The translations under genes and the position numbers were made by a program. From a virus (Duplodnaviria; Caudoviricetes), in IMG/VR virus record IMGVR_UViG_3300020045_011189, positions 1-31,487 of that record: a DNA stretch of 31,487 nucleotides. One strand, given 5' to 3'. Numbering within the stretch: position 1 is the first letter of the stretch; each line of letters opens with the position of its first letter. Shown piece by piece: positions 4,802-29,879 of the stretch. The notes below the pieces were generated by a model. It was given only the letters and a program-made list of their open reading frames with translations. It was not told the origin of the DNA and made no database searches.

Positions 4802-5424
4802 TATGAATCCTTATTAGCTTCATAAAAAGCCTTAGCAAATCCATCGCTACACATACTTCTTAAACTCATATCATCATTAATTTTATCCCAAGCCCATTGA
4901 TATTCAGTCATTTTAAATTTATCATTTTTATGTAAATATGCTAAACAAGGCTTATCTCTATCTTTTCTTTTCCATAAATCCAATTTATTAGGTACATCTA
5001 TCCACTTATAATAAATTTTATCAGGCATATTAAAATTACCCCATAAAGCTGTTTGTTTACTCCAAGAGCTACCAAAGTGCCAAGGTTGATATATTGATTT
5101 GGGTTTCCCTAAAATCTCTTTTAATCTTCCTTTTGCTGGATTTTCTAATATCCAAAATTTAGGACTAGATTCTTTAATTATTCTCAAACAATGATTTACT
5201 AAAAACATTCCACCTTCTAAATTGCCAACTTTATTAAATCCTGCAACTGTTGAGAATTCAGTACATACTGGATTAGCAATAATTCCAAATACATTTTTAG
5301 GTGGATGATAATTTTCTACTCCAATATCTTTACCAATTTTTATAACTTCAAATTCATTATCCAATTGGAAATATCTGCTATCACTTCCAATATCTGCACA
5401 TAAATGTAGTATTATTTTTTTCAT
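4801..5424 (-). CDS. phage DNA cytosine-5 methyltransferase (short Dcm-like)
   Basis: Motif I-like ILHLCADIGSDS, catalytic ANPVCTEFS, ENP, K.T.LWG. Confidence 0.75.
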   Translation of the reverse strand: MKKIILHLCADIGSDSRYFQLDNEFEVIKIGKDIGVENYHPPKNVFGIIANPVCTEFSTVAGFNKVGNLEGGMFLVNHCLRIIKESSPKFWILENPAKGRLKEILGKPKSIYQPWHFGSSWSKQTALWGNFNMPDKIYYKWIDVPNKLDLWKRKDRDKPCLAYLHKNDKFKMTEYQWAWDKINDDMSLRSMCSDGFAKAFYEANKDS

Positions 5425-6065
5425 AATTTACCCCTTAAGCTTTCACTATTTAAAGTTACTCTACTAATTTTATTATCTTTTAATCTATCCGTTACCCTAT
5501 CACCTAAAAATTGCTTAAATTCATCTGTTTCTAAATTAGAAATATAAATAGTTGGAAGTAGCTCATTGTATCTGTAACTAATTAACTCTTCTAATTGTAT
5601 TTTTTGCCAGTCTTGTAATTCTCTTTTTCCTATTTCATCTAATACCAGTATATCAACCTTTTTAAAGCCATTAAACGAGTCAAACTTTTTTTGTGTATAA
5701 AGTTCCAATAATTCAAATTCTGTCACATATCGGCAGTATATGAGTGCTTTATGTATGATATTATTAATAAGTCCGATTGATAAATGAGTTTTTCCAGTTC
5801 CAACACTTCCAATGATTAATAAATCTGACATTTCATTCACTTGCTTTTTACTAAAACAATTTTTCATTTTATCAACTAATTTGACTTGATAATCATTTAT
5901 TGGTTCGGGTTTTGCATTTTCATATCTCTTTGGAATATTTGCAAACTCTAAAATGTTAGTTATTCTAGTGCTTTTAAATTCATTTTCTTGTTTTTCTTTT
6001 TCTAATCTATCAAGTTCTTTTTGTTCGTTTGTAATTGGTGTTATTAGCTGTTTAATATCTTGCAT
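5421..6065 (-). CDS. DnaC/IstB-like AAA+ helicase loader
   Basis: Walker A GSVGTGKT, Walker B LVLDEIG, PTIYISN, R..DRL, SLR; follows initiator. Confidence 0.9.
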   Translation of the reverse strand: MQDIKQLITPITNEQKELDRLEKEKQENEFKSTRITNILEFANIPKRYENAKPEPINDYQVKLVDKMKNCFSKKQVNEMSDLLIIGSVGTGKTHLSIGLINNIIHKALIYCRYVTEFELLELYTQKKFDSFNGFKKVDILVLDEIGKRELQDWQKIQLEELISYRYNELLPTIYISNLETDEFKQFLGDRVTDRLKDNKISRVTLNSESLRGKL

Positions 6066-6832
6066 TAAAATTCCTCATCATCACGATTAGTATCGTAAGT
6101 TTTTCCACTTAAATCCAAAGTACTTTTAGCTACTACTTGATTTAAATATCCTTCGAACTTATTACTAAATAATGTTTCAGGTCTTAGGTATGCACTCATT
6201 TTTTTATCTTTTAACCATTCAGTAGTTTTTTTATCAATTACTATTTTAAAATCTTCAAAATTAAATCCATCATTAAATCTAGCTTTTATTAAATCTTTAG
6301 TTTTACTACTAGTAGATTTATATTTTGTATTTGCTTTTACATTTAGATAATTAACTATTTCAGAAAAAGGATATATATATTTATTCTCTTCTTGTCTTAT
6401 CTCTTCTCTTCTCTTCTCTTCTTGCATGACTTTATCATGACTATCTACTGATTTAATCATGATTGAGTCATGATTTTGTTCTTTTATCTGCGAGATTAAG
6501 TTTCTAAATTTAGAATTTGAAGTCATACTTTGGTCTAGTCTTTTAGCTAAAGCATAACAAGCTAACTTATTATTTTTAGTAATACTAAATAGTTCTAATT
6601 TAATCATTTTTTGCATCATATCTTTCGTTTCTTGAACTGTTAAATTCAAATTTCTTGCTATTATTCTAGCATCATGTTCTAATTCAAAAGTAATATTTGC
6701 ATCACTAATGTTTTGAGCAATTAACTCTACACAATACCAATATAAACCATAACCGCTTGCACCATAATCAAGTAATAATTCTTGAAGTTTTGCATCTATT
6801 GAAGCATCTGTGTCATGCTTAAACCATTTGAT
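6065..6832 (-). CDS. phage replication initiator (N-terminal DUF4373/Lin1244-like, conserved phage C-terminal domain), probable ATC start
   Basis: Frame is open upstream of 6649: IKWFKHDTDASIDAKLQELLLDYGASGYGLYWYCVELI; C-terminal YLRPETLFSNKFEGYLNQ; SD GGAGG 6 nt before ATC at 6832, in-frame TAG at 6847-6845. Confidence 0.8.
   Translation of the reverse strand: MKWFKHDTDASIDAKLQELLLDYGASGYGLYWYCVELIAQNISDANITFELEHDARIIARNLNLTVQETKDMMQKMIKLELFSITKNNKLACYALAKRLDQSMTSNSKFRNLISQIKEQNHDSIMIKSVDSHDKVMQEEKRREEIRQEENKYIYPFSEIVNYLNVKANTKYKSTSSKTKDLIKARFNDGFNFEDFKIVIDKKTTEWLKDKKMSAYLRPETLFSNKFEGYLNQVVAKSTLDLSGKTYDTNRDDEEF
6400..6478. repeat. probable replication origin: 11-bp-phased iterons plus (CTCTT)n tract
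   Basis: CATGA cores at 6425, 6436, 6458, 6469 (degenerate at 6447) next to a pyrimidine tract, inside the initiator gene as in lambdoid phages. Confidence 0.65.
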
Positions 6833-7349
6833 AACACACCTCCTCTAGTAATTTAGAACCTTTTCTTCTATTGCATCTTACACAAGCCATTTTACAATTA
6901 TCTTTTTTATGTTTACCGCCTTTTGATATTGGTAAAACATGGTCTAATTCCATTTTTTTAAATTCAAAATTTTGATTACAAATATAGCAAATTCCATTTT
7001 GTTCATTATATAGCTCGAGAGGACTAACATTTTCAACAAAAGCTAATTTTTTTAAAGCATATCTTTTTTGCGTATATTTTCTATATGATGATTGTCCAGA
7101 TTCTGTTTTTAAATATTCTTTTCTTTTTTGCTTGTGATGTTCTTTATTTAACTCCATACTTTTTTTAACTATACTTTTTCTTTTTTCTTTATTTTTTTCT
7201 CTATACTCTTTTTCATAATTTGCTCTATTTTCTTTATTTAATGATAAAGAATCACATTGTTTACATCTTGGCTTATATCCTATTTTACTATGTTTATCTT
7301 TATAAAATAAACTAACATCTTTTTCTTCTTTGCAATAACAACATATCAT
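6819..7349 (-). CDS. HNH homing endonuclease
   Basis: N-terminal CCYC..CKQC finger, charged helix, C-terminal CYIC..ELDHVLPISKGGKH..DN..ACVRCNRRKG. Confidence 0.9.
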   Translation of the reverse strand: MICCYCKEEKDVSLFYKDKHSKIGYKPRCKQCDSLSLNKENRANYEKEYREKNKEKRKSIVKKSMELNKEHHKQKRKEYLKTESGQSSYRKYTQKRYALKKLAFVENVSPLELYNEQNGICYICNQNFEFKKMELDHVLPISKGGKHKKDNCKMACVRCNRRKGSKLLEEVCYQMV

Positions 7350-7376
7350 AGAATGCCCCTAGAAATTAATTTATGA

Positions 7377-7399
7377 ATTATATCATAAGTTTGTTTAAA
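7377..7399 (-). promoter_or_regulatory. extended -10 promoter for HNH
   Basis: TTTAAACAAACTTA-TG-A-TATAAT. Confidence 0.6.
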
Positions 7400-7407
7400 C
7401 CACTTCA

Positions 7408-7764
7408 TTATTTAATCTCGTTTGAATTATTTATAATTGATTCAATTTGTTTTAAATCTTCAAAAGACAAATTACTTAAGTTTTGTTCGTATCTTAACTT
7501 AAATAAAAATTTTTGACTCCAAAGATAGTTAAGGGCATCTTGTTTTGTAATGAATAAAATTCCACTACAATTGTGCTTATCCCATTGATTGTCTAACCTA
7601 ATCTTTTCATTCAAAAAAATAGCATTAGCAGAACTAAGATTAATTAATTTTTTAGATATCAAAGACTCCTCATCTGTTTTACTTCTTGACTTATTGTTTC
7701 CAGTTGGTAGAATCCAAATATCTTGATTGATATTTTGTTTAAGTTGTTTTCTTGTAGCAATCAT
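7408..7764 (-). CDS. hypothetical protein
   Basis: 118-aa ORF coupled by TAATG overlaps on both sides. Confidence 0.6.
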   Translation of the reverse strand: MIATRKQLKQNINQDIWILPTGNNKSRSKTDEESLISKKLINLSSANAIFLNEKIRLDNQWDKHNCSGILFITKQDALNYLWSQKFLFKLRYEQNLSNLSFEDLKQIESIINNSNEIK

Positions 7765-7982
7765 TATTTCTCACCTTTATAAATATAAGTTGCATAACTA
7801 ACTAGCTCACTAAATCTATTGGTAGTCTTAGTCATTTTAGTTTCTATGTTGTGATTTTCTCTTAGCTTGTAAATAGTATCTGATAATCTATATACAGATA
7901 ATTCCATTAGAGAAACAAGTGGATTAATACTTCCGTTTTCTTTTAAGTAATTTAATACTCTTTGTTGTTGAGTTTGACTCAT
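7764..7982 (-). CDS. phage winged helix-turn-helix protein
   Basis: TQQQRVLNYLKENGSINPL...YRLSDTIYKLR...IET pattern; SD AGGAG. Confidence 0.8.
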   Translation of the reverse strand: MSQTQQQRVLNYLKENGSINPLVSLMELSVYRLSDTIYKLRENHNIETKMTKTTNRFSELVSYATYIYKGEK

Positions 7983-7991
7983 TTTGTACTC

Positions 7992-8441
7992 CTATAAACC
8001 GTATTTTTTATAAATACTATTAACTTCTTTTTTAATAGCTTCATCACTTTTTTCATATGCCCTTTTTGTTTTAGGCATAACCTTTAATTCTTCCTCAGAA
8101 CCAACATTAAAAGATTTATAATCGTCTTTATAGTCAATCTTTCTGTAAGTCAAATTTTTATTAAAGTTCTCAAATAAATAATCATTTAATTCTAAAATTA
8201 AGCCATTGTCTTTTTTAAACCATTCGTTGTTAAATTTTTTCGAGTGAAATAATTCTTTAGCAAATGTTTCCACTTGAAAAGCTATTTTTCTATTGGGTAG
8301 TGGAATAGTATAAATATAACCTATTTTATTTTGAGCAGAAGTATTTATAGTTTTCAATCTTTCATATACAGAAAAAGTTGTAACTCCTATTTTTACTGCT
8401 GATTTTGTACAAAACAAATATAAAATACCTGTATTATTCAT
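7992..8441 (-). CDS. GIY-YIG superfamily T5orf172/MUG113-domain protein
   Basis: GILYLF...VKIGVT..VYERL...E...H...NEWF. Confidence 0.8.
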   Translation of the reverse strand: MNNTGILYLFCTKSAVKIGVTTFSVYERLKTINTSAQNKIGYIYTIPLPNRKIAFQVETFAKELFHSKKFNNEWFKKDNGLILELNDYLFENFNKNLTYRKIDYKDDYKSFNVGSEEELKVMPKTKRAYEKSDEAIKKEVNSIYKKYGL

Positions 8442-8456
8442 TTAATATGGCGTCTT

Positions 8457-8525
8457 TCAAAAAGTATGGAATAAAATATTTTGTAGATTAGGGGAATAAA
8501 GAAGTGCCAATTTCGATATATTCAT
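8457..8525 (-). CDS. putative 22-aa leader peptide
   Basis: MNISKLALLYSPNLQNILFHTF*; its start region is complementary to the upstream structured RNA. Confidence 0.35.
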   Translation of the reverse strand: MNISKLALLYSPNLQNILFHTF

Positions 8526-8538
8526 CTAATCAATTTGT

Positions 8539-8618
8539 AAACCACCTAGCAAAGCTTTATCTGAAAGATAAAACCTTGCTGAATATATCAGGCATTGGCT
8601 AAGCCTTGCTAGATGTTT
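8539..8618 (-). ncRNA. C4/CI-like phage antisense RNA (~80 nt)
   Basis: Outer stem CAUCUAGCAAGGCUU/AAGCUUUGCUAGGUG with G-U pairs on the minus strand; internal GCCAAU and GAUAUAUUCA complementary to 8506-8511 and 8515-8524. Confidence 0.55.
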
Positions 8619-8704
8619 TAGTAAAATAATATTTCTGAAGTGTATTCGTTTGTGTAGAAATATTTTTCACATAGAACTACTAAATACACTATAAAAATAT
8701 TTGC

Positions 8705-8825
8705 GGTAAATATCGGATAGTTGCAATTCTATCCGATACTAAGAAAGGAGGTTTAAACGAAAAATGAATGTTACAATACCTAAAAGTAACCGTGTTATAA
8801 AGAAAATTTGAGAAAACTTTACAAC
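8705..8825 (-). ncRNA. putative sRNA with anti-SD motif CCUCCUUUCUU and 3' hairpin
   Basis: Promoter at 8832-8860, perfect 10-bp stem at 8711-8738. Confidence 0.45.
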
Positions 8826-8831
8826 AAGAGT

Positions 8832-8860
8832 ATTATAATACATTAAATCTAAAATGTAAA
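8832..8860 (-). promoter_or_regulatory. leftward early promoter
   Basis: TTTACA(8860-8855)-17-TATAAT(8837-8832). Confidence 0.7.
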
Positions 8861-8906
8861 GTGATATTTTACTAAATTTTGTAATTTATTATTTTTGAGT
8901 AGTATA

Positions 8907-8977
8907 GTAACATTATTAAAATTTATTTTGTTTTTTAAGTTGGATTACTTGACATTAGTTTGATTTTGGTTTATTAT
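8907..8977 (+). promoter_or_regulatory. rightward promoter with GTAACA box
   Basis: TTGACA(8949-8954)-17-TATTAT(8972-8977); GTAACA at 8907. Confidence 0.75.
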
Positions 8978-9006
8978 GTGGATAGAAAAAGATTAAAGGG
9001 GATATA

Positions 9007-26623: not shown

Positions 26624-28310
26624 ATAACTCCAATAATCCCCTAGTATTATAAATGCTTTCTTCTTCTTTTTCTTCGATGTCTTTTATTGCAATTCCTAGT
26701 GCCATAGCTATGGCTACCATTCCATCGACCTTGTCAATAGACTTATCTTTGTCTATTTTGATATTATCTGATGGATCACGCCTTAACACTACATTTGAAC
26801 ACATCCAATTTAAAACTTCATTTTTGTCATGATTTAGTTTTCCTTGAAGTGCTAAAACTTCTATTTGTTTTGTTGGGGCGGACATTGAAGCATAACCTTG
26901 CCCAAACTGTATCATTTCAGTAACTTCATCTTCTGTTAATCTTCTAACCAAGTCTGAACTGTTCCATCTATCATAGGCTATCATTTTTACATTAAAGAAA
27001 TTACACAATCTCTTAATGTGTTTCTCAATAAAAGCATAATCAACTACATTTCCCTCAGTAGTTTTGATTAATCCTTTTTTTACCCAGTCAAAATAAGGTA
27101 CTTTATCTCTTCGGACTCTTTCAATCATATTATCTTTAGGTATCCAAAAGTAAGGAATTACATCAAAACCACTATTTCCATCATCAAAAATAAGAACTAA
27201 TGCGGTAATATCTGTACAAGATGATAAGTCAAGTCCACCATAACATTTTCTATTTTTAAGTTGTTTTAGTTTATTGAATCCTATTTTTTGTTGGTTATTG
27301 TTCCAAACACTATTTTTAATCCAAACATCTGCTTTATCACACCAAACGCTCAAGTGCTTTGTTAAAAACGATATTCTTGATTGCTCACTTTGTTCTGCTT
27401 GTAAAACTTTGTTTCTCATATATGAAGATGTTGGAGAAAGAGGATATCCTGGATTTGCCTTTTTCCATACTTCTTCGTTTTTCCAAAAATCAGGGTCTTC
27501 TAAATCTTCTTCACTAGGCTCAAATAAAACAGAATAAAAACTTTCATCTTTAATTATTCCTTGCTGTATTTTTTTAGCATATAGATAAATATCTTTATAA
27601 AAAAAACCTTGAAGATTGTAACCAGCTGTACTCATTATAATCTCTAAAGGATTATTTCTACCAGCTTGTCCATCTGTGATGATTTGATATAAATTCTTAT
27701 TTGCGTAGCTATGTGGCTCATCTATTAAGGCTAAAGATACATTTAATCCATCTTTACTGTCTGCTGTACTTGACAATGCTATATACTCATCTATAAAAGC
27801 ACCATTATATTTTGATACTCTAGGAGGTTGAATTGTAGTTTTAACCATTTCTTGAAGTTCTGGGGTTTGTTTTATCATTGTAGTGAAAGCTTTATGAAGT
27901 ATTTTAGCTTGTTCCAAATCACTAGCCATTGAATAGCATTCTTTCGCTTTTTCATCATCTAAAAAAAAATATAAGATAGTTAATAACGCTCCAAAAGTGG
28001 ATTTACCACCTTTTTTACTCATAAATAATAAGACTCTTTGATATCTCCTTAGTCCTTTAAATTCTCCTTGTCTGTGCTTTGTTGCAAATACATCAATAAT
28101 TAATTTTATTTGAAAGTCCATAAACTGAAATGTTATACCTCCAAACTCTCCCGCTGGCAATTTCATTAAAGAAGCAAATTTTATATATTTATATGCTAAT
28201 TCTTTATCTAAATAATATTTAGGCTCACTCACATCTAAAAATTTACTTTGTTTTACTATATAATCTTTTGCAATTTTCCAAAAATACTCAGGTGGTTTTA
28301 TTTCTATCAA
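26622..28310 (-). CDS. terL: terminase large subunit
   Basis: Walker A KKGGKST, Walker B LIDEPH, STAG, W.KANP, GGLDLS..D, YDRW, DKVDG. Confidence 0.95.
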   Translation of the reverse strand: MIEIKPPEYFWKIAKDYIVKQSKFLDVSEPKYYLDKELAYKYIKFASLMKLPAGEFGGITFQFMDFQIKLIIDVFATKHRQGEFKGLRRYQRVLLFMSKKGGKSTFGALLTILYFFLDDEKAKECYSMASDLEQAKILHKAFTTMIKQTPELQEMVKTTIQPPRVSKYNGAFIDEYIALSSTADSKDGLNVSLALIDEPHSYANKNLYQIITDGQAGRNNPLEIIMSTAGYNLQGFFYKDIYLYAKKIQQGIIKDESFYSVLFEPSEEDLEDPDFWKNEEVWKKANPGYPLSPTSSYMRNKVLQAEQSEQSRISFLTKHLSVWCDKADVWIKNSVWNNNQQKIGFNKLKQLKNRKCYGGLDLSSCTDITALVLIFDDGNSGFDVIPYFWIPKDNMIERVRRDKVPYFDWVKKGLIKTTEGNVVDYAFIEKHIKRLCNFFNVKMIAYDRWNSSDLVRRLTEDEVTEMIQFGQGYASMSAPTKQIEVLALQGKLNHDKNEVLNWMCSNVVLRRDPSDNIKIDKDKSIDKVDGMVAIAMALGIAIKDIEEKEEESIYNTRGLLEL

Positions 28311-29053
28311 AGTAATCTTCCTAATGAATTTGCATATTCTTGCGGGTCTTTTGCTCTTTTATCTAAATTACATTTGCTACAAGATGCAACAAGGTTGCTA
28401 ATAGTGTGCTTTCCACCTTTTGATATGGGTATATAATGGTCAATATTTAAATCATTTTCTTTTATTTTACAATTGCACCAATAGCATATTTTTGTTTTTT
28501 GTAGTTCTATCATTTCATTAGTAGTTACATCTCCTTCTTCTCTTCTTGTTCTTCTAAGTGAGTGTGCATTTCTTTGTATAGCTTTGCCTTTGTCTGTTTT
28601 TCTATAATTTTTACTATATTCTTTAGTTTTTCCTAAATTATTTAATCTATACTTTCTATTTCTTTCAAGAATTTCTTTAGTTTTTTGTAAATATCTTTCT
28701 CTTTGGTATTTTTTTTGCTTTAATGCTATTGTTTCTTTGTTTTTTTCTCTATATCTTCTATTTCTTTCCAATAGTTTTTCTTTATTATTCTCTGCATATT
28801 TTTTAACTTGTGATTTTATAATATCTTTATCTCTTTGATATCTTTCTTTTTTTTGTTGTGAAATTTGTTCTTTATTTTCCTCGTAGTATTTTTTTTGATT
28901 ATCTTTATATTTATCTATTTTACTATTCATATAATTTTTAATACACTCTTTACAATGATGATTTTTACCATCTTTTGTTCTGTTACTTTTATTGAACTCA
29001 GTTAATTCTTTCTCGCAGTTGCACTTAGTGCATATTTTAGTAGTATATTCCAT
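28307..29053 (-). CDS. HNH homing endonuclease
   Basis: KICTKC..K..EF...DG...CKEC finger, Y/K/E/N repeats, CYWC..IDHYIPISKGGKH..NLV.SC..CN..K. Confidence 0.9.
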   Translation of the reverse strand: MEYTTKICTKCNCEKELTEFNKSNRTKDGKNHHCKECIKNYMNSKIDKYKDNQKKYYEENKEQISQQKKERYQRDKDIIKSQVKKYAENNKEKLLERNRRYREKNKETIALKQKKYQRERYLQKTKEILERNRKYRLNNLGKTKEYSKNYRKTDKGKAIQRNAHSLRRTRREEGDVTTNEMIELQKTKICYWCNCKIKENDLNIDHYIPISKGGKHTISNLVASCSKCNLDKRAKDPQEYANSLGRLL

Positions 29054-29059
29054 TGAAGC

Positions 29060-29139
29060 CCCTCAGCTCATTAATTTAGTAGAGAGATAGCTGAGGGATT
29101 GTATCTCTCAACTAAATCAATAACAAGGGTATTATAGCA
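29060..29139 (-). promoter_or_regulatory. HNH promoter and RBS-sequestering structured leader
   Basis: TG-C-TATAAT (29139-29131); 19-bp stem 29071-29089/29102-29120, loop CCCUCAGC complementary to GCUGAGGG at the RBS. Confidence 0.65.
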
Positions 29140-29141
29140 TA

Positions 29142-29879
29142 TCATTCTTCAAAACTCTCTTTACTATTTAATATATCAAAAATTGATTCTTTCTTCTCTT
29201 GTTTAATCTCTAATCCAATTCTTGAACGAATTCCAATTCCTAGCATATTAGCAATTTTTGTCATTTGAGATAAACACTTGTCAAGCACCATAAAATATGG
29301 ATGTAATTTTAAATTACCAAAACTATCAGTAGTTGTATTGTCTTGTTTTGCACTTGCAACTGTTGCAAATACCCAATTCTGATAAGAAACTGCATAAGTC
29401 AAGACTAACGCTCTATCTTGCTCTTTATAAGTGCCATTCTCTTTTAAAAGCTCTACGACTCGATTAAATTCATCTTGACCAATTTCATTTAATAAATCTG
29501 ACATTGTAAAATCTTTTGTGTCTAGTAGTGGTGGTTTGATTATGTCTTCATCATCGAAAAGATTATAATCTTCTATATCTTCGCTAATTATTTTTAAATC
29601 TTTTTTAACTTCAACTTTAAGCTTTTTATTTTTAACTTTTTTCTCTTTAATATCTTTTACAATCTTTTCAGCTTTTTCTATCACTTGTGGGTTTTTCTTT
29701 TTTTCTATATTTTTAGCATTATCTTTTTTATATCTTTCTAAATCTGTTTTTAGATATAGGTTAGGTTTTCCAGCTCCTTGTGATTTAACAGTTATATTAT
29801 GATTTTTAACTATCTTATGTAACCCTTGACGCGTTGTTATTTGTAGGAGTTGCATTGATTCGTGAGGATTTAGGTACAT
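29142..29879 (-). CDS. terS: terminase small subunit (P27-like) with N-terminal HTH-like extension
   Basis: D...L..Y...Y, G....HP, LG.G.RSR motifs; upstream of terL. Confidence 0.8.
   Translation of the reverse strand: MYLNPHESMQLLQITTRQGLHKIVKNHNITVKSQGAGKPNLYLKTDLERYKKDNAKNIEKKKNPQVIEKAEKIVKDIKEKKVKNKKLKVEVKKDLKIISEDIEDYNLFDDEDIIKPPLLDTKDFTMSDLLNEIGQDEFNRVVELLKENGTYKEQDRALVLTYAVSYQNWVFATVASAKQDNTTTDSFGNLKLHPYFMVLDKCLSQMTKIANMLGIGIRSRIGLEIKQEKKESIFDILNSKESFEE

What the first reader, a model, noticed from the sequence alone, without database searches (positions are those of the whole stretch)
6819..7408. HNH cassette inserted at the start of the replication initiator, leaving a recoded duplicate N-terminus and an ATC start
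Seen: upstream of the HNH, ATG AAG TGG TTT AAA CA (MKWFK, 7408) is coupled to the previous gene. Downstream, ATC AAA TGG TTT AAG CAT GAC (IKWFKHD, 6832) begins the real initiator frame. The copies share TGGTTTAA and differ only at third codon positions. The old start now reads a 20-aa leader whose TGA overlaps the HNH ATG. The HNH 3' end supplies GGAGG 6 nt before ATC, and there is no ATG/GTG/TTG in frame between the upstream TAG and the conserved domain. There is no room for a group I/II intron core. Inference: an intron-less homing element that stays neutral by rebuilding the host gene's RBS and start, with synonymous changes possibly giving cleavage immunity. The initiator would then depend on a non-canonical ATC start, or on precise excision or frameshifting.
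Basis: partly seen in the sequence, partly recalled or inferred. Interest (0 to 1): 0.8.

Follow-up and report, generated by a model that had tools for sequence, protein, structure and literature searches.

The report
Nuclease cassette swaps initiator's start codon
A nuclease gene sits on the first codons of a phage replication gene, leaves the old ATG start as a stub, and ends in a strong ribosome-binding sequence followed by ATC; the same layout, always with ATC or ATT, recurs in more than 20 other phage and metagenome sequences, so it is likely a selfish homing element, and the replication gene is likely read from this rare start codon, which may protect the element from cutting itself.

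Summary
Confirmed and extended. A 576-bp cassette (7408-6833, minus strand) lies between two 17-nt copies of the start of a Lin1244_N/DUF4373 replication-initiator gene: old ATG, 20-codon leader, zinc-finger/HNH gene, AGGAGG, then ATC. All 24 filled loci examined without presupposing the codon start at ATC or ATT, none at ATG. In 49 of 54 HNH homologues the tail fits ATC/ATT and never ATG, so this is no sequencing error. Cultured Vibrio breoganii phages give an empty/filled pair (1.082.O versus 1.147.O and 1.162.O). About a tenth of matching initiator starts in IMG/VR are ATH without a full family HNH, and 16 of 19 of these carry the cassette's SD-spacer: footprints of the element. Synonymous recoding is not supported as the immunity; the only fixed difference from empty alleles is loss of the start codon's G. 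Splicing, frameshifting and an internal start fit poorly. Best reading: an intron-less homing cassette whose stub serves as the left homology arm and whose near-cognate start keeps the host gene working and likely blocks self-cleavage. Cleavage, homing and initiation at ATC are untested. It mirrors mitochondrial mORF gene hybrids; I found no published phage case. New variant of a known kind.

The parts
7408..7764 (-). Upstream 118-aa gene of unknown function; its TAA overlaps the old initiator ATG (TAATG coupling)
   Evidence: no PHROG match; only a sub-threshold Pfam hit
6833..7408 (-). The 576-bp cassette, from the old start to the base before the new start
   Evidence: repeat spacing 576; contigs of three runs stop matching at 7407/7408; filled/empty pairs
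7392..7408 (-). Left copy of the initiator start (MKWFK); inferred left homology arm
   Evidence: left copies match empty alleles for 14 nt and 8 nt in two pairs
7346..7408 (-). 20-codon leader from the old ATG; its TGA overlaps the HNH ATG
   Evidence: in 10 of 54 homologues the HNH is instead fused directly to M-K/Q-W/C-F
6819..7349 (-). HNH endonuclease gene, 176 aa: N-terminal CxxC/CxxC zinc finger, long helical segment, C-terminal McrA/Cas9-type HNH domain
   Evidence: D136, H137, H147, N151, N160 and eight Cys invariant; mean pLDDT 91
6839..6844 (-). Shine-Dalgarno-like AGGAGG inside the HNH's E-E codons, 6 nt before ATC
   Evidence: duplex energy -15.9 kcal/mol
6830..6832 (-). ATC, the inferred start codon of the initiator
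   Evidence: ATC or ATT in 24 of 24 filled loci and 5 of 5 true hits of a codon-unbiased scan
6816..6832 (-). Right copy of the initiator start (IKWFKH), overlapped by the HNH's last codons and stop
6065..6832 (-). Replication initiator, 255 aa: Lin1244_N (DUF4373) residues 3-85 and Phg_2220_C residues 159-231
   Evidence: (phrog_428 replication initiation protein)
6425..6474 (.). Four TCATG repeats in inverted arrangement inside the initiator gene; likely origin iterons (inferred from lambdoid layout, recalled)
   Evidence: I4, I6
5421..6065 (-). DnaC-like helicase loader coupled to the initiator's stop

Best explanation
The 576-bp segment is an intron-less HNH cassette that sits on the start codon of Lin1244_N/DUF4373 initiator genes and ends in an SD plus ATC; it is likely a homing element, and the initiator is likely translated from that near-cognate ATC, which likely also makes the filled allele resistant to its own nuclease. 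Steps: (1, shown) Empty alleles begin NTG AAR TGG NTN AAR CAY behind unrelated upstream genes. (2, inferred) In co-infection the HNH nicks or cuts this conserved start region of an empty allele. (3, inferred from two pairs) The DNA upstream of the initiator is not shared between phages, so the left end is repaired through the 8-17-nt copy of the start carried at the cassette's 5' end. The right end is repaired through the initiator gene and can carry along donor initiator sequence. Off-register repeats of this step would explain the 1-3 stacked start copies in leaders. (4, shown) The old ATG now opens a leader or the HNH itself, and the HNH's last codons encode SD, spacer and AT(C/T). (5, inferred) Ribosomes start at ATC/ATT, with a stronger-than-usual SD offsetting a weak codon. 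(6, inferred, about 0.55) Loss of the start codon's G, the only fixed difference from targets, blocks re-cleavage. (7) The SD-ATH end occurs without the HNH (shown); it likely outlives the HNH as an immune footprint (inferred).
For: Site constancy: the 20 best metagenome hits (L148-L167, of 53), two cultured phages and an internally deleted copy (L208) all put the HNH tail on a K-W-x-K-H start. The gene behind is Lin1244_N from residue 3 in 12 of 14 tested. Of 115 weaker HNH loci, 2 had the motif: one more deleted copy (L184) and one chance match. Codon: ATC 21, ATT 3, ATG 0 of 24. A scan with NNN at the start gave 11 hits; its 5 true initiators all had ATC. In 49 of 54 HNH proteins with a Y/H tail, the next residue is Q 40, stop 7, P 2, E 0; E is what ATG would encode. 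SD: -9.2 to -15.9 kcal/mol at ATH in 16 of 16 distinct filled loci, versus -3.7 to +1.3 at the first downstream canonical codon. ATH SDs are stronger than canonical ones (median -10.4 versus -8.3, p 6e-5). Selection on codons 2-61, window versus L001 (both ATH): pS 0.81, pN 0.05. Pair 1.082.O/1.147.O: 605-bp insert, flanks about 95-97% identical. Pair L318/L153: left flank 204 of 205 identical up to an 8-nt junction, then a diverged initiator N-terminus. Recent transfer: a contig in run X1 matches 6648-7408 and ends at 7408; 26 of its 47 differences fall in 6682-6797. Footprints: 16 of 19 distinct ATH upstreams score above the 95th percentile of 79 canonical ones on the cassette's SD-spacer profile. 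AUC/AUU initiate at about 1-2% of AUG in E. coli (10.1101/063800, passages).
Against: No cleavage, crossing, transcript or protein data. HNH and initiator identities co-vary across 14 loci (Mantel rho 0.60, p 0.0008) and the trees are mostly unresolved. Only one conflict is supported: L201's HNH groups with L152/154/155 (100/100) while its initiator groups with L148 (93/91). Much inheritance may therefore be vertical or carry the initiator along. Absence of ATG could be descent from one event: position -1 also varies only by transitions (T/C). 5 of 54 homologues lack the tail and their context is unknown. 3 of 19 ATH alleles do not resemble the cassette end, and 5 of 19 have an in-frame canonical codon upstream; L229 probably starts there. 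A 1-2% start codon on a presumably essential gene implies a cost. The structurally closest solved HNH (4H9D) is labelled a nicking enzyme, and small phage HNHs have 3-7-bp specificity (PMC3592412, abstract), so site-specific homing is not guaranteed.
Confidence: 0.75

Rival explanations
1. Same cassette and ATC start, but ATH is expression tuning or a frozen accident rather than immunity: the HNH-embedded SD is strong, so a weak codon keeps initiator levels low, or ATH arose once and was inherited.
For: ATH alleles have stronger SDs. Position -1 also varies only by transitions, and ATH persists without a family HNH. HNH and initiator co-vary.
Against: Transversions are common at -2 to -4, and HNH proteins are only 44-84% identical to the window's, yet +3 is never G. 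The right junction otherwise recreates a normal target (3 of 16 right copies match an empty allele exactly over +4..+21), so an active nuclease needs some discriminator. Some canonical alleles have SDs as strong and keep ATG (L277, L298).
Confidence: 0.3
2. The HNH is a resident accessory nuclease beside the initiator, not a homing element, and ATH starts are an old property of the initiator family that the HNH tail merely overlaps.
For: Other HNH genes lie before ATG-started initiators (1.042.O, 2E1, 1.134.O), and some are joined to the same tail (L222, L241). HNH-less ATH alleles exist.
Against: Precise presence/absence in near-identical backgrounds. Sharp homology edge at 7407/7408 in three runs. 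Stranded start copies, MKWF fusions, and deleted copies that keep both ends (L208, L184). HNH-less ATH alleles often still read as the HNH tail (L225, L223, L238).
Confidence: 0.08
3. The initiator is restored after transcription or by DNA excision: splicing, a +1 frameshift from the HNH, ribosomal bypass from the leader, or recombination between the two copies.
For: The direct repeats would allow in-frame excision, and 1.147.O has an exact 11-nt repeat (+4..+14). The HNH stop overlaps the initiator's first codons in the +1 frame.
Against: 531 of the 576 bp are HNH coding. No Rfam hit. No in-register position has the U-before/G-last pattern of group I junctions (read). Cassette length runs from 76 to about 610 bp and the HNH stop position varies. 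An in-frame stop directly precedes the SD in many loci. ATH alleles without the left copy or HNH exist. One search shows no joint that skips the cassette, but contigs cannot show absence.
Confidence: 0.07
4. The initiator starts at an internal canonical codon (TTG 6649 here; GenBank calls ATG at codon 20 in 1.147.O), or is dead.
For: Automatic calls choose these starts.
Against: The first canonical codon lies anywhere from codon 12 to 64 and never has an SD. The Pfam domain starts at residue 3. Codons 2-61 are under purifying selection. The empty sister phage is annotated from the homologous ATG.
Confidence: 0.07

Closest known systems
Mobile endonuclease ORF (mORF) gene hybrids of fungal mitochondria: Allomyces macrogynus atp6; Glomus sp. 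atp6, atp9, cox2, nad3 (PMC3630166, passages)
   Same: An endonuclease gene inserts in a coding gene without an intron and keeps it whole by carrying a replacement terminus; the displaced native terminus stays as a duplicate.
   Different: Those replace the C-terminus, use LAGLIDADG or GIY-YIG enzymes, and carry tens to hundreds of bases. This one replaces only the translation-initiation region at the N-terminus, is a zinc-finger/HNH in phages, imposes a near-cognate start codon, and leaves an SD-ATH footprint.
Free-standing homing endonucleases of T4-like phages (seg and mob genes; 'intronless homing'; PMC2988022, passages)
   Same: Intron-less, promoter-less nuclease cassette translationally coupled to its neighbours (mobE uses UAAUGA), with patchy presence at a cognate site.
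   Different: The review describes intergenic insertions that cleave hundreds to thousands of bp away, or insertions that split a gene into two polypeptides (Aeh1 nrdA, T4 gene 60). Here the insertion is on the start codon, the gene stays whole, and the HNH domain is C-terminal rather than N-terminal.
ShiLan domain, a hidden HNH in a mycobacteriophage methylase (PMC11855218: abstract, Discussion, figure legends)
   Same: Intron-less, intein-less HNH/zinc-finger insertion inside a phage gene; its 5' end is compared with host sequence beyond the insertion site.
   Different: ShiLan stays neutral by being read through in frame as a protein loop. This cassette has stops in the host frame and restarts the gene.
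Zinc-ribbon HNH nicking endonucleases of phages, for example the Gme HNH in PDB 4H9D (PMC3592412, abstract)
   Same: HNH domain with CxxC pairs plus an additional zinc-binding module.
   Different: Those are mostly next to cos/terminase genes, with 3-7-bp nicking specificity. This family has a long helical segment and one constant insertion site.
Non-AUG starts in E. coli: infC and pcnB begin with AUU (10.1101/063800, passages)
   Same: AUU/AUC can initiate, at about 0.1-3% of AUG.
   Different: Here the non-AUG start appears to be imposed by a mobile element on a replication gene across many phages.

Membership tests
Free-standing homing endonuclease (intronless homing) | Intact nuclease domain with catalytic residues | tested here: met
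   D136, H137, H147, N151, N160 invariant in 54 sequences; HNH fold
Free-standing homing endonuclease (intronless homing) | Not inside a self-splicing intron or intein | tested here: met
   No Rfam hit; 45 non-HNH bases in the cassette; stops in the host frame
Free-standing homing endonuclease (intronless homing) | Present or absent at one cognate site among related phages | tested here: met
   1.082.O versus 1.147.O/1.162.O; L318 versus L153
Free-standing homing endonuclease (intronless homing) | Lateral movement independent of the flanks | tested here: inconclusive
   For: common left edge with different upstream DNA in three runs and one supported tree conflict. Against: Mantel rho 0.60
Free-standing homing endonuclease (intronless homing) | Cleaves the empty allele and spares its own | not testable with these tools
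   needs a cleavage assay
Free-standing homing endonuclease (intronless homing) | Biased inheritance in mixed infection | not testable with these tools
   needs phage crosses
Mitochondrial mORF gene hybrids | Endonuclease ORF inserted in a gene with a duplicated terminus that keeps it whole | tested here: met
   N-terminal mirror form
Mitochondrial mORF gene hybrids | The carried terminus is foreign to the recipient gene | tested here: inconclusive
   Diverged in L153/L318; identical but for +3 in 1.147.O/1.082.O
Mitochondrial mORF gene hybrids | C-terminal replacement by a LAGLIDADG or GIY-YIG element in mitochondrial DNA | tested here: not met
   HNH, phage, N-terminus
Group I intron | Catalytic core (P3-P7) outside or overlapping the ORF | tested here: not met
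   Rfam scan empty; a 76-bp derivative keeps the same ends
Group I intron | Upstream exon ends in U and the intron ends in G at a frame-restoring junction | tested here: not met
   None of the 17 in-register positions of the two copies has T on the left and G on the right (read)
ShiLan-type hidden HNH insertion | Insertion read through in the host frame without stops | tested here: not met
   The leader stops after 20 codons; TAG precedes the SD
Insertion sequence / transposon | Transposase and terminal inverted repeats | tested here: not met
   Only HNH families; no inverted repeat pairing the two cassette ends among the 25 longest listed
Lin1244_N (DUF4373) phage replication initiator (host gene) | Lin1244_N domain followed by a helicase loader or helicase gene | tested here: met
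   biochemical initiator activity not testable here

The most novel reading that the evidence does not exclude
A homing nuclease that reads the G of its host gene's start codon. The element gains immunity by moving an essential replication gene onto the best start codons that lack that G (AUC/AUU), carries the gene's first codons as a portable homology arm so it can enter phages with unrelated upstream DNA, and leaves immune SD-ATH alleles behind. Selfish nucleases would then be a systematic, unannotated source of non-AUG starts in phages (about a tenth of this initiator family) and could drive swaps of whole initiator/origin modules.
Probability: 0.45. Interest if true: 0.82.

Novelty: new variant of a known kind. 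Interest (0 to 1): 0.7.

Why it matters
It shows a further way for a homing nuclease to sit inside an essential gene without splicing: restart the gene. It offers a concrete origin for non-AUG start codons, of which only infC and pcnB were confirmed in E. coli according to the paper consulted. It also explains a systematic annotation error: GenBank truncates the initiator of 1.147.O and 1.162.O by 19 codons. A cultured empty/filled phage pair on the same host species makes cleavage, immunity, homing and AUU initiation directly testable.

Tried and rejected
Synonymous-recoding immunity: rejected. Sequencing error at the ATC: rejected on homologues; raw reads were not seen. My interim idea that ATH is simply native to the initiator family (after): largely rejected, since 16 of 19 such alleles carry the cassette's 3' end and all 13 cassette-free cultured phages fetched start ATG or GTG (15 of the 48 records were fetched). 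RNA structure at the two start regions: no better than shuffles (z -0.56 and -0.17). Promoter and terminator scan of 6700-9000: at chance level. Rfam: nothing. Joints (none skipping the cassette) and runs with small word shares were not used as evidence. Trees are mostly unresolved. The precedent of GIY-YIG homing enzymes depending on one critical G is recalled; it was not found in the review searched.
Full report
Observation. On the minus strand, a 118-aa gene ends in TAA overlapping ATG AAG TGG TTT AAA CA at 7408. That ATG opens 20 codons whose TGA overlaps the HNH ATG at 7349. The HNH gene ends at 6819. Its last codons hold an initiator-frame TAG, AGGAGG (6844-6839), six bases and ATC AAA TGG TTT AAG CA at 6832. 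The copies are 14 of 17 identical at a spacing of 576; the pattern occurs twice in the window and in none of 100 shuffles. The ATC frame gives 255 aa with Pfam Lin1244_N at residues 3-85 and Phg_2220_C at 159-231 and matches phrog_428, replication initiation protein. A DnaC-like loader follows.

The HNH belongs to a site-specific family. One search returned 63 proteins. I aligned the 54 full-length ones at E 3.7e-37 or better, including the query, and left out two partial and seven distant ones. Catalytic and zinc-binding residues are invariant. The model (mean pLDDT 91) has an N-terminal zinc finger, long helices and a C-terminal HNH domain whose best solved matches are Cas9 HNH domains and the Gme nicking enzyme 4H9D. 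In 49 of 54 the tail has Y or H followed by Q (40), stop (7) or P (2), never E. In the initiator frame these residues correspond to a third base C or T; ATG would need E. Ten of 54 begin M-K/Q-W/C-F, so the HNH is fused to the initiator's own first codons. A wider profile search found the same tail in 8 of 148 further representatives, all among the top hits.

Context. Of 53 metagenome loci I analysed the 20 best, L148-L167. All have the HNH end overlapping a K-W-x-K-H start; L165 has a frameshift inside the HNH. Together with the window, phages 1.147.O and 1.162.O and L208, the codon before K-W was ATC in 21 and ATT in 3 of 24, with the codon left free in the search. A collection scan with NNN at that codon gave 11 hits; 5 were true initiators, all ATC, two of them full elements (L381, L382), and 6 were chance. 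The gene behind the cassette is Lin1244_N from residue 3 in 12 of 14 tested; L161 and L162 share only the first residues. As a control, of 115 weaker HNH loci (the other 33, 80, 2), 2 had the motif: L184, a further internally deleted copy with ATC, and L186, a chance match. Leaders often hold two or three stacked start copies (L148, L152, L154, L155, L201, L382).

Empty alleles and mobility. Vibrio phage 1.082.O (MG592457) has rha coupled to an ATG-started initiator. 1.147.O (MG592516) and 1.162.O (MG592530), recorded from the same host species, carry a 605-bp cassette at that point; the flanks differ at 32 of 600 bases on the left and 25 of 760 on the right. The left copy equals the empty allele for 14 nt. 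The right copy differs only at +3 until +45. GenBank starts the filled gene 19 codons late. That these isolates form plaques, and so must replicate, is recalled and not shown by a call. L318 (empty) and L153 (filled) share 204 of 205 left-flank bases up to an 8-nt junction in the start; L153's initiator N-terminus is then synonymously diverged while later residues read nearly the same (the gene aligns at 87.6% overall). In one search, contigs of runs X1, X2 and X4 stop matching at 7407/7408, with different upstream letters shown for X1 and X4. The X1 contig has 47 differences over 6648-7408, and 26 of them are listed in 6682-6797, so the cassette is far closer than the initiator behind it. Against free movement: HNH and initiator identities correlate over 14 loci (Mantel rho 0.60, p 0.0008), and the trees show only one supported conflict.

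Is ATC the start? In 16 of 16 distinct filled loci the SD duplex at ATH is -9.2 to -15.9 kcal/mol. The first downstream canonical codon lies at codon 12-64 and scores -3.7 to +1.3. Fourteen loci have no upstream in-frame canonical codon, and the two that do lack an SD there (the anti-SD motif used is recalled). Codons 2-61 of the window and L001, both ATH with nearly the same spacer, give pS 0.81 and pN 0.05; that they were ATH throughout their divergence is inferred. AUC/AUU/AUA initiate at 1-2% (0.1-3% in a second system) of AUG in E. coli, and AUC gave N-terminal Met (10.1101/063800, passages). Splicing, frameshifting and bypass fit poorly: no Rfam hit, no group I junction pattern, cassette lengths of 76 to about 610 bp, and variable HNH stop positions.

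Footprints. A complete IMG/VR scan for ATH starts gave 40 hits, 25 of them true initiators with 19 distinct upstreams. The canonical scan fetched 120 of about 220 hits, 115 true with 79 distinct upstreams. ATH is thus roughly a tenth of starts matching this pattern. None of the 25 has a full family HNH. They form a series: a deleted copy with both ends (L208), HNH remnants or other HNH genes joined to the tail (L211, L222, L232, L241), short tail relics (L223, L225, L238), and SD-spacer alone. Sixteen of 19 score above the 95th percentile of canonical alleles on a profile from 15 filled ends (p 2e-8). Three do not, and 5 of 19 have an upstream in-frame canonical codon. All 13 cassette-free cultured phages fetched start ATG or GTG. 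The footprints could be decay products or partial repair products; the data do not separate these.

Immunity. Filled right copies (16) and empty alleles (79) use the same synonymous bases at +6, +12, +15 and +18; only +3 is fixed (C/T versus G), and 3 of 16 right copies occur exactly in an empty allele over +4..+21. Upstream DNA differs among targets, so a nuclease must read the coding side, where this G is the only constant discriminator. ATG, GTG and TTG all have it, and AUC/AUU are among the strongest starts that lack it. This is inference (about 0.55); expression tuning or descent from one event remain possible.

Mechanism and comparison. The best reading (0.75) is a homing cassette that cuts the empty start region, repairs its left end through the carried start copy and its right end through the initiator gene, and restarts the gene at SD-ATH. 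It works like the fungal mORF gene hybrids (PMC3630166, passages), mirrored to the N-terminus and shrunk to the initiation region, but it is not a member. It meets the testable criteria of intronless homing (PMC2988022, passages); cleavage and inheritance were not testable. It differs from the read-through ShiLan insertion (PMC11855218: abstract, Discussion, legends).

Literature seen. Ten searches of the held library found no description of this family or of an HNH-imposed ATC/ATT start. 'DUF4373 + HNH' and 'Lin1244 + phage + replication initiat' returned 0 papers. Subscription papers and supplements were not seen. Also consulted: PMC7487136 and PMC10448857 (passages), PMC12724721 and PMC3592412 (abstracts). 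Earlier AI notes of this scan describe similar start-replacing nuclease cassettes at other genes, two with ATC. I did not test them; they suggest a recurring strategy and are not counted as support.

Verdict. Real, conserved and testable in cultured phages; a new variant of intron-less homing. Interest 0.70.

Noticed in passing
window 28307-29145 (- strand): A second HNH lies between a terS-like gene and terL. Its last codons supply terL's SD and overlap a TTG start, while the terS-like stop overlaps an ATG ATA resembling terL's TTG ATA. A strong hairpin (z -4.2) pairs with the HNH's SD, just after an extended -10-like motif. Homologues end alike (P0058, P0138, P0176, P0181). Possibly a second start-replacing cassette.
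   Followed up: partly
window 5421-7989 versus L004: L004 is 97% identical over 5421-6381 and 94% over 7762-7989 but has a different initiator N-terminal domain and no cassette in between. The window's 6382-7761 looks like a swapped initiator/origin module.
   Followed up: partly
L222, L241, L211 (upstream of the ATH start): A different, resident type of HNH gene is joined to this cassette's tail near the C-N-x-x-K-G codons, suggesting recombination between two HNH motifs.
   Followed up: partly
L208 and L184: Internally deleted copies (76 bp and about 145 bp) keep both ends of the cassette, like non-autonomous elements.
   Followed up: yes
window 7992-8441 (- strand): MUG113/T5orf172-type nuclease-like ORF upstream in the same gene run.
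   Followed up: no
window 6425-6474: Four TCATG repeats followed by an AG-rich tract inside the initiator gene; probable origin iterons about 360 bp from the insertion site.
   Followed up: no
L201 (MG592516) and L377 (MG592530): GenBank starts the initiator at an internal ATG, 19 codons after the ATT that matches the sister phage's start.
   Followed up: yes
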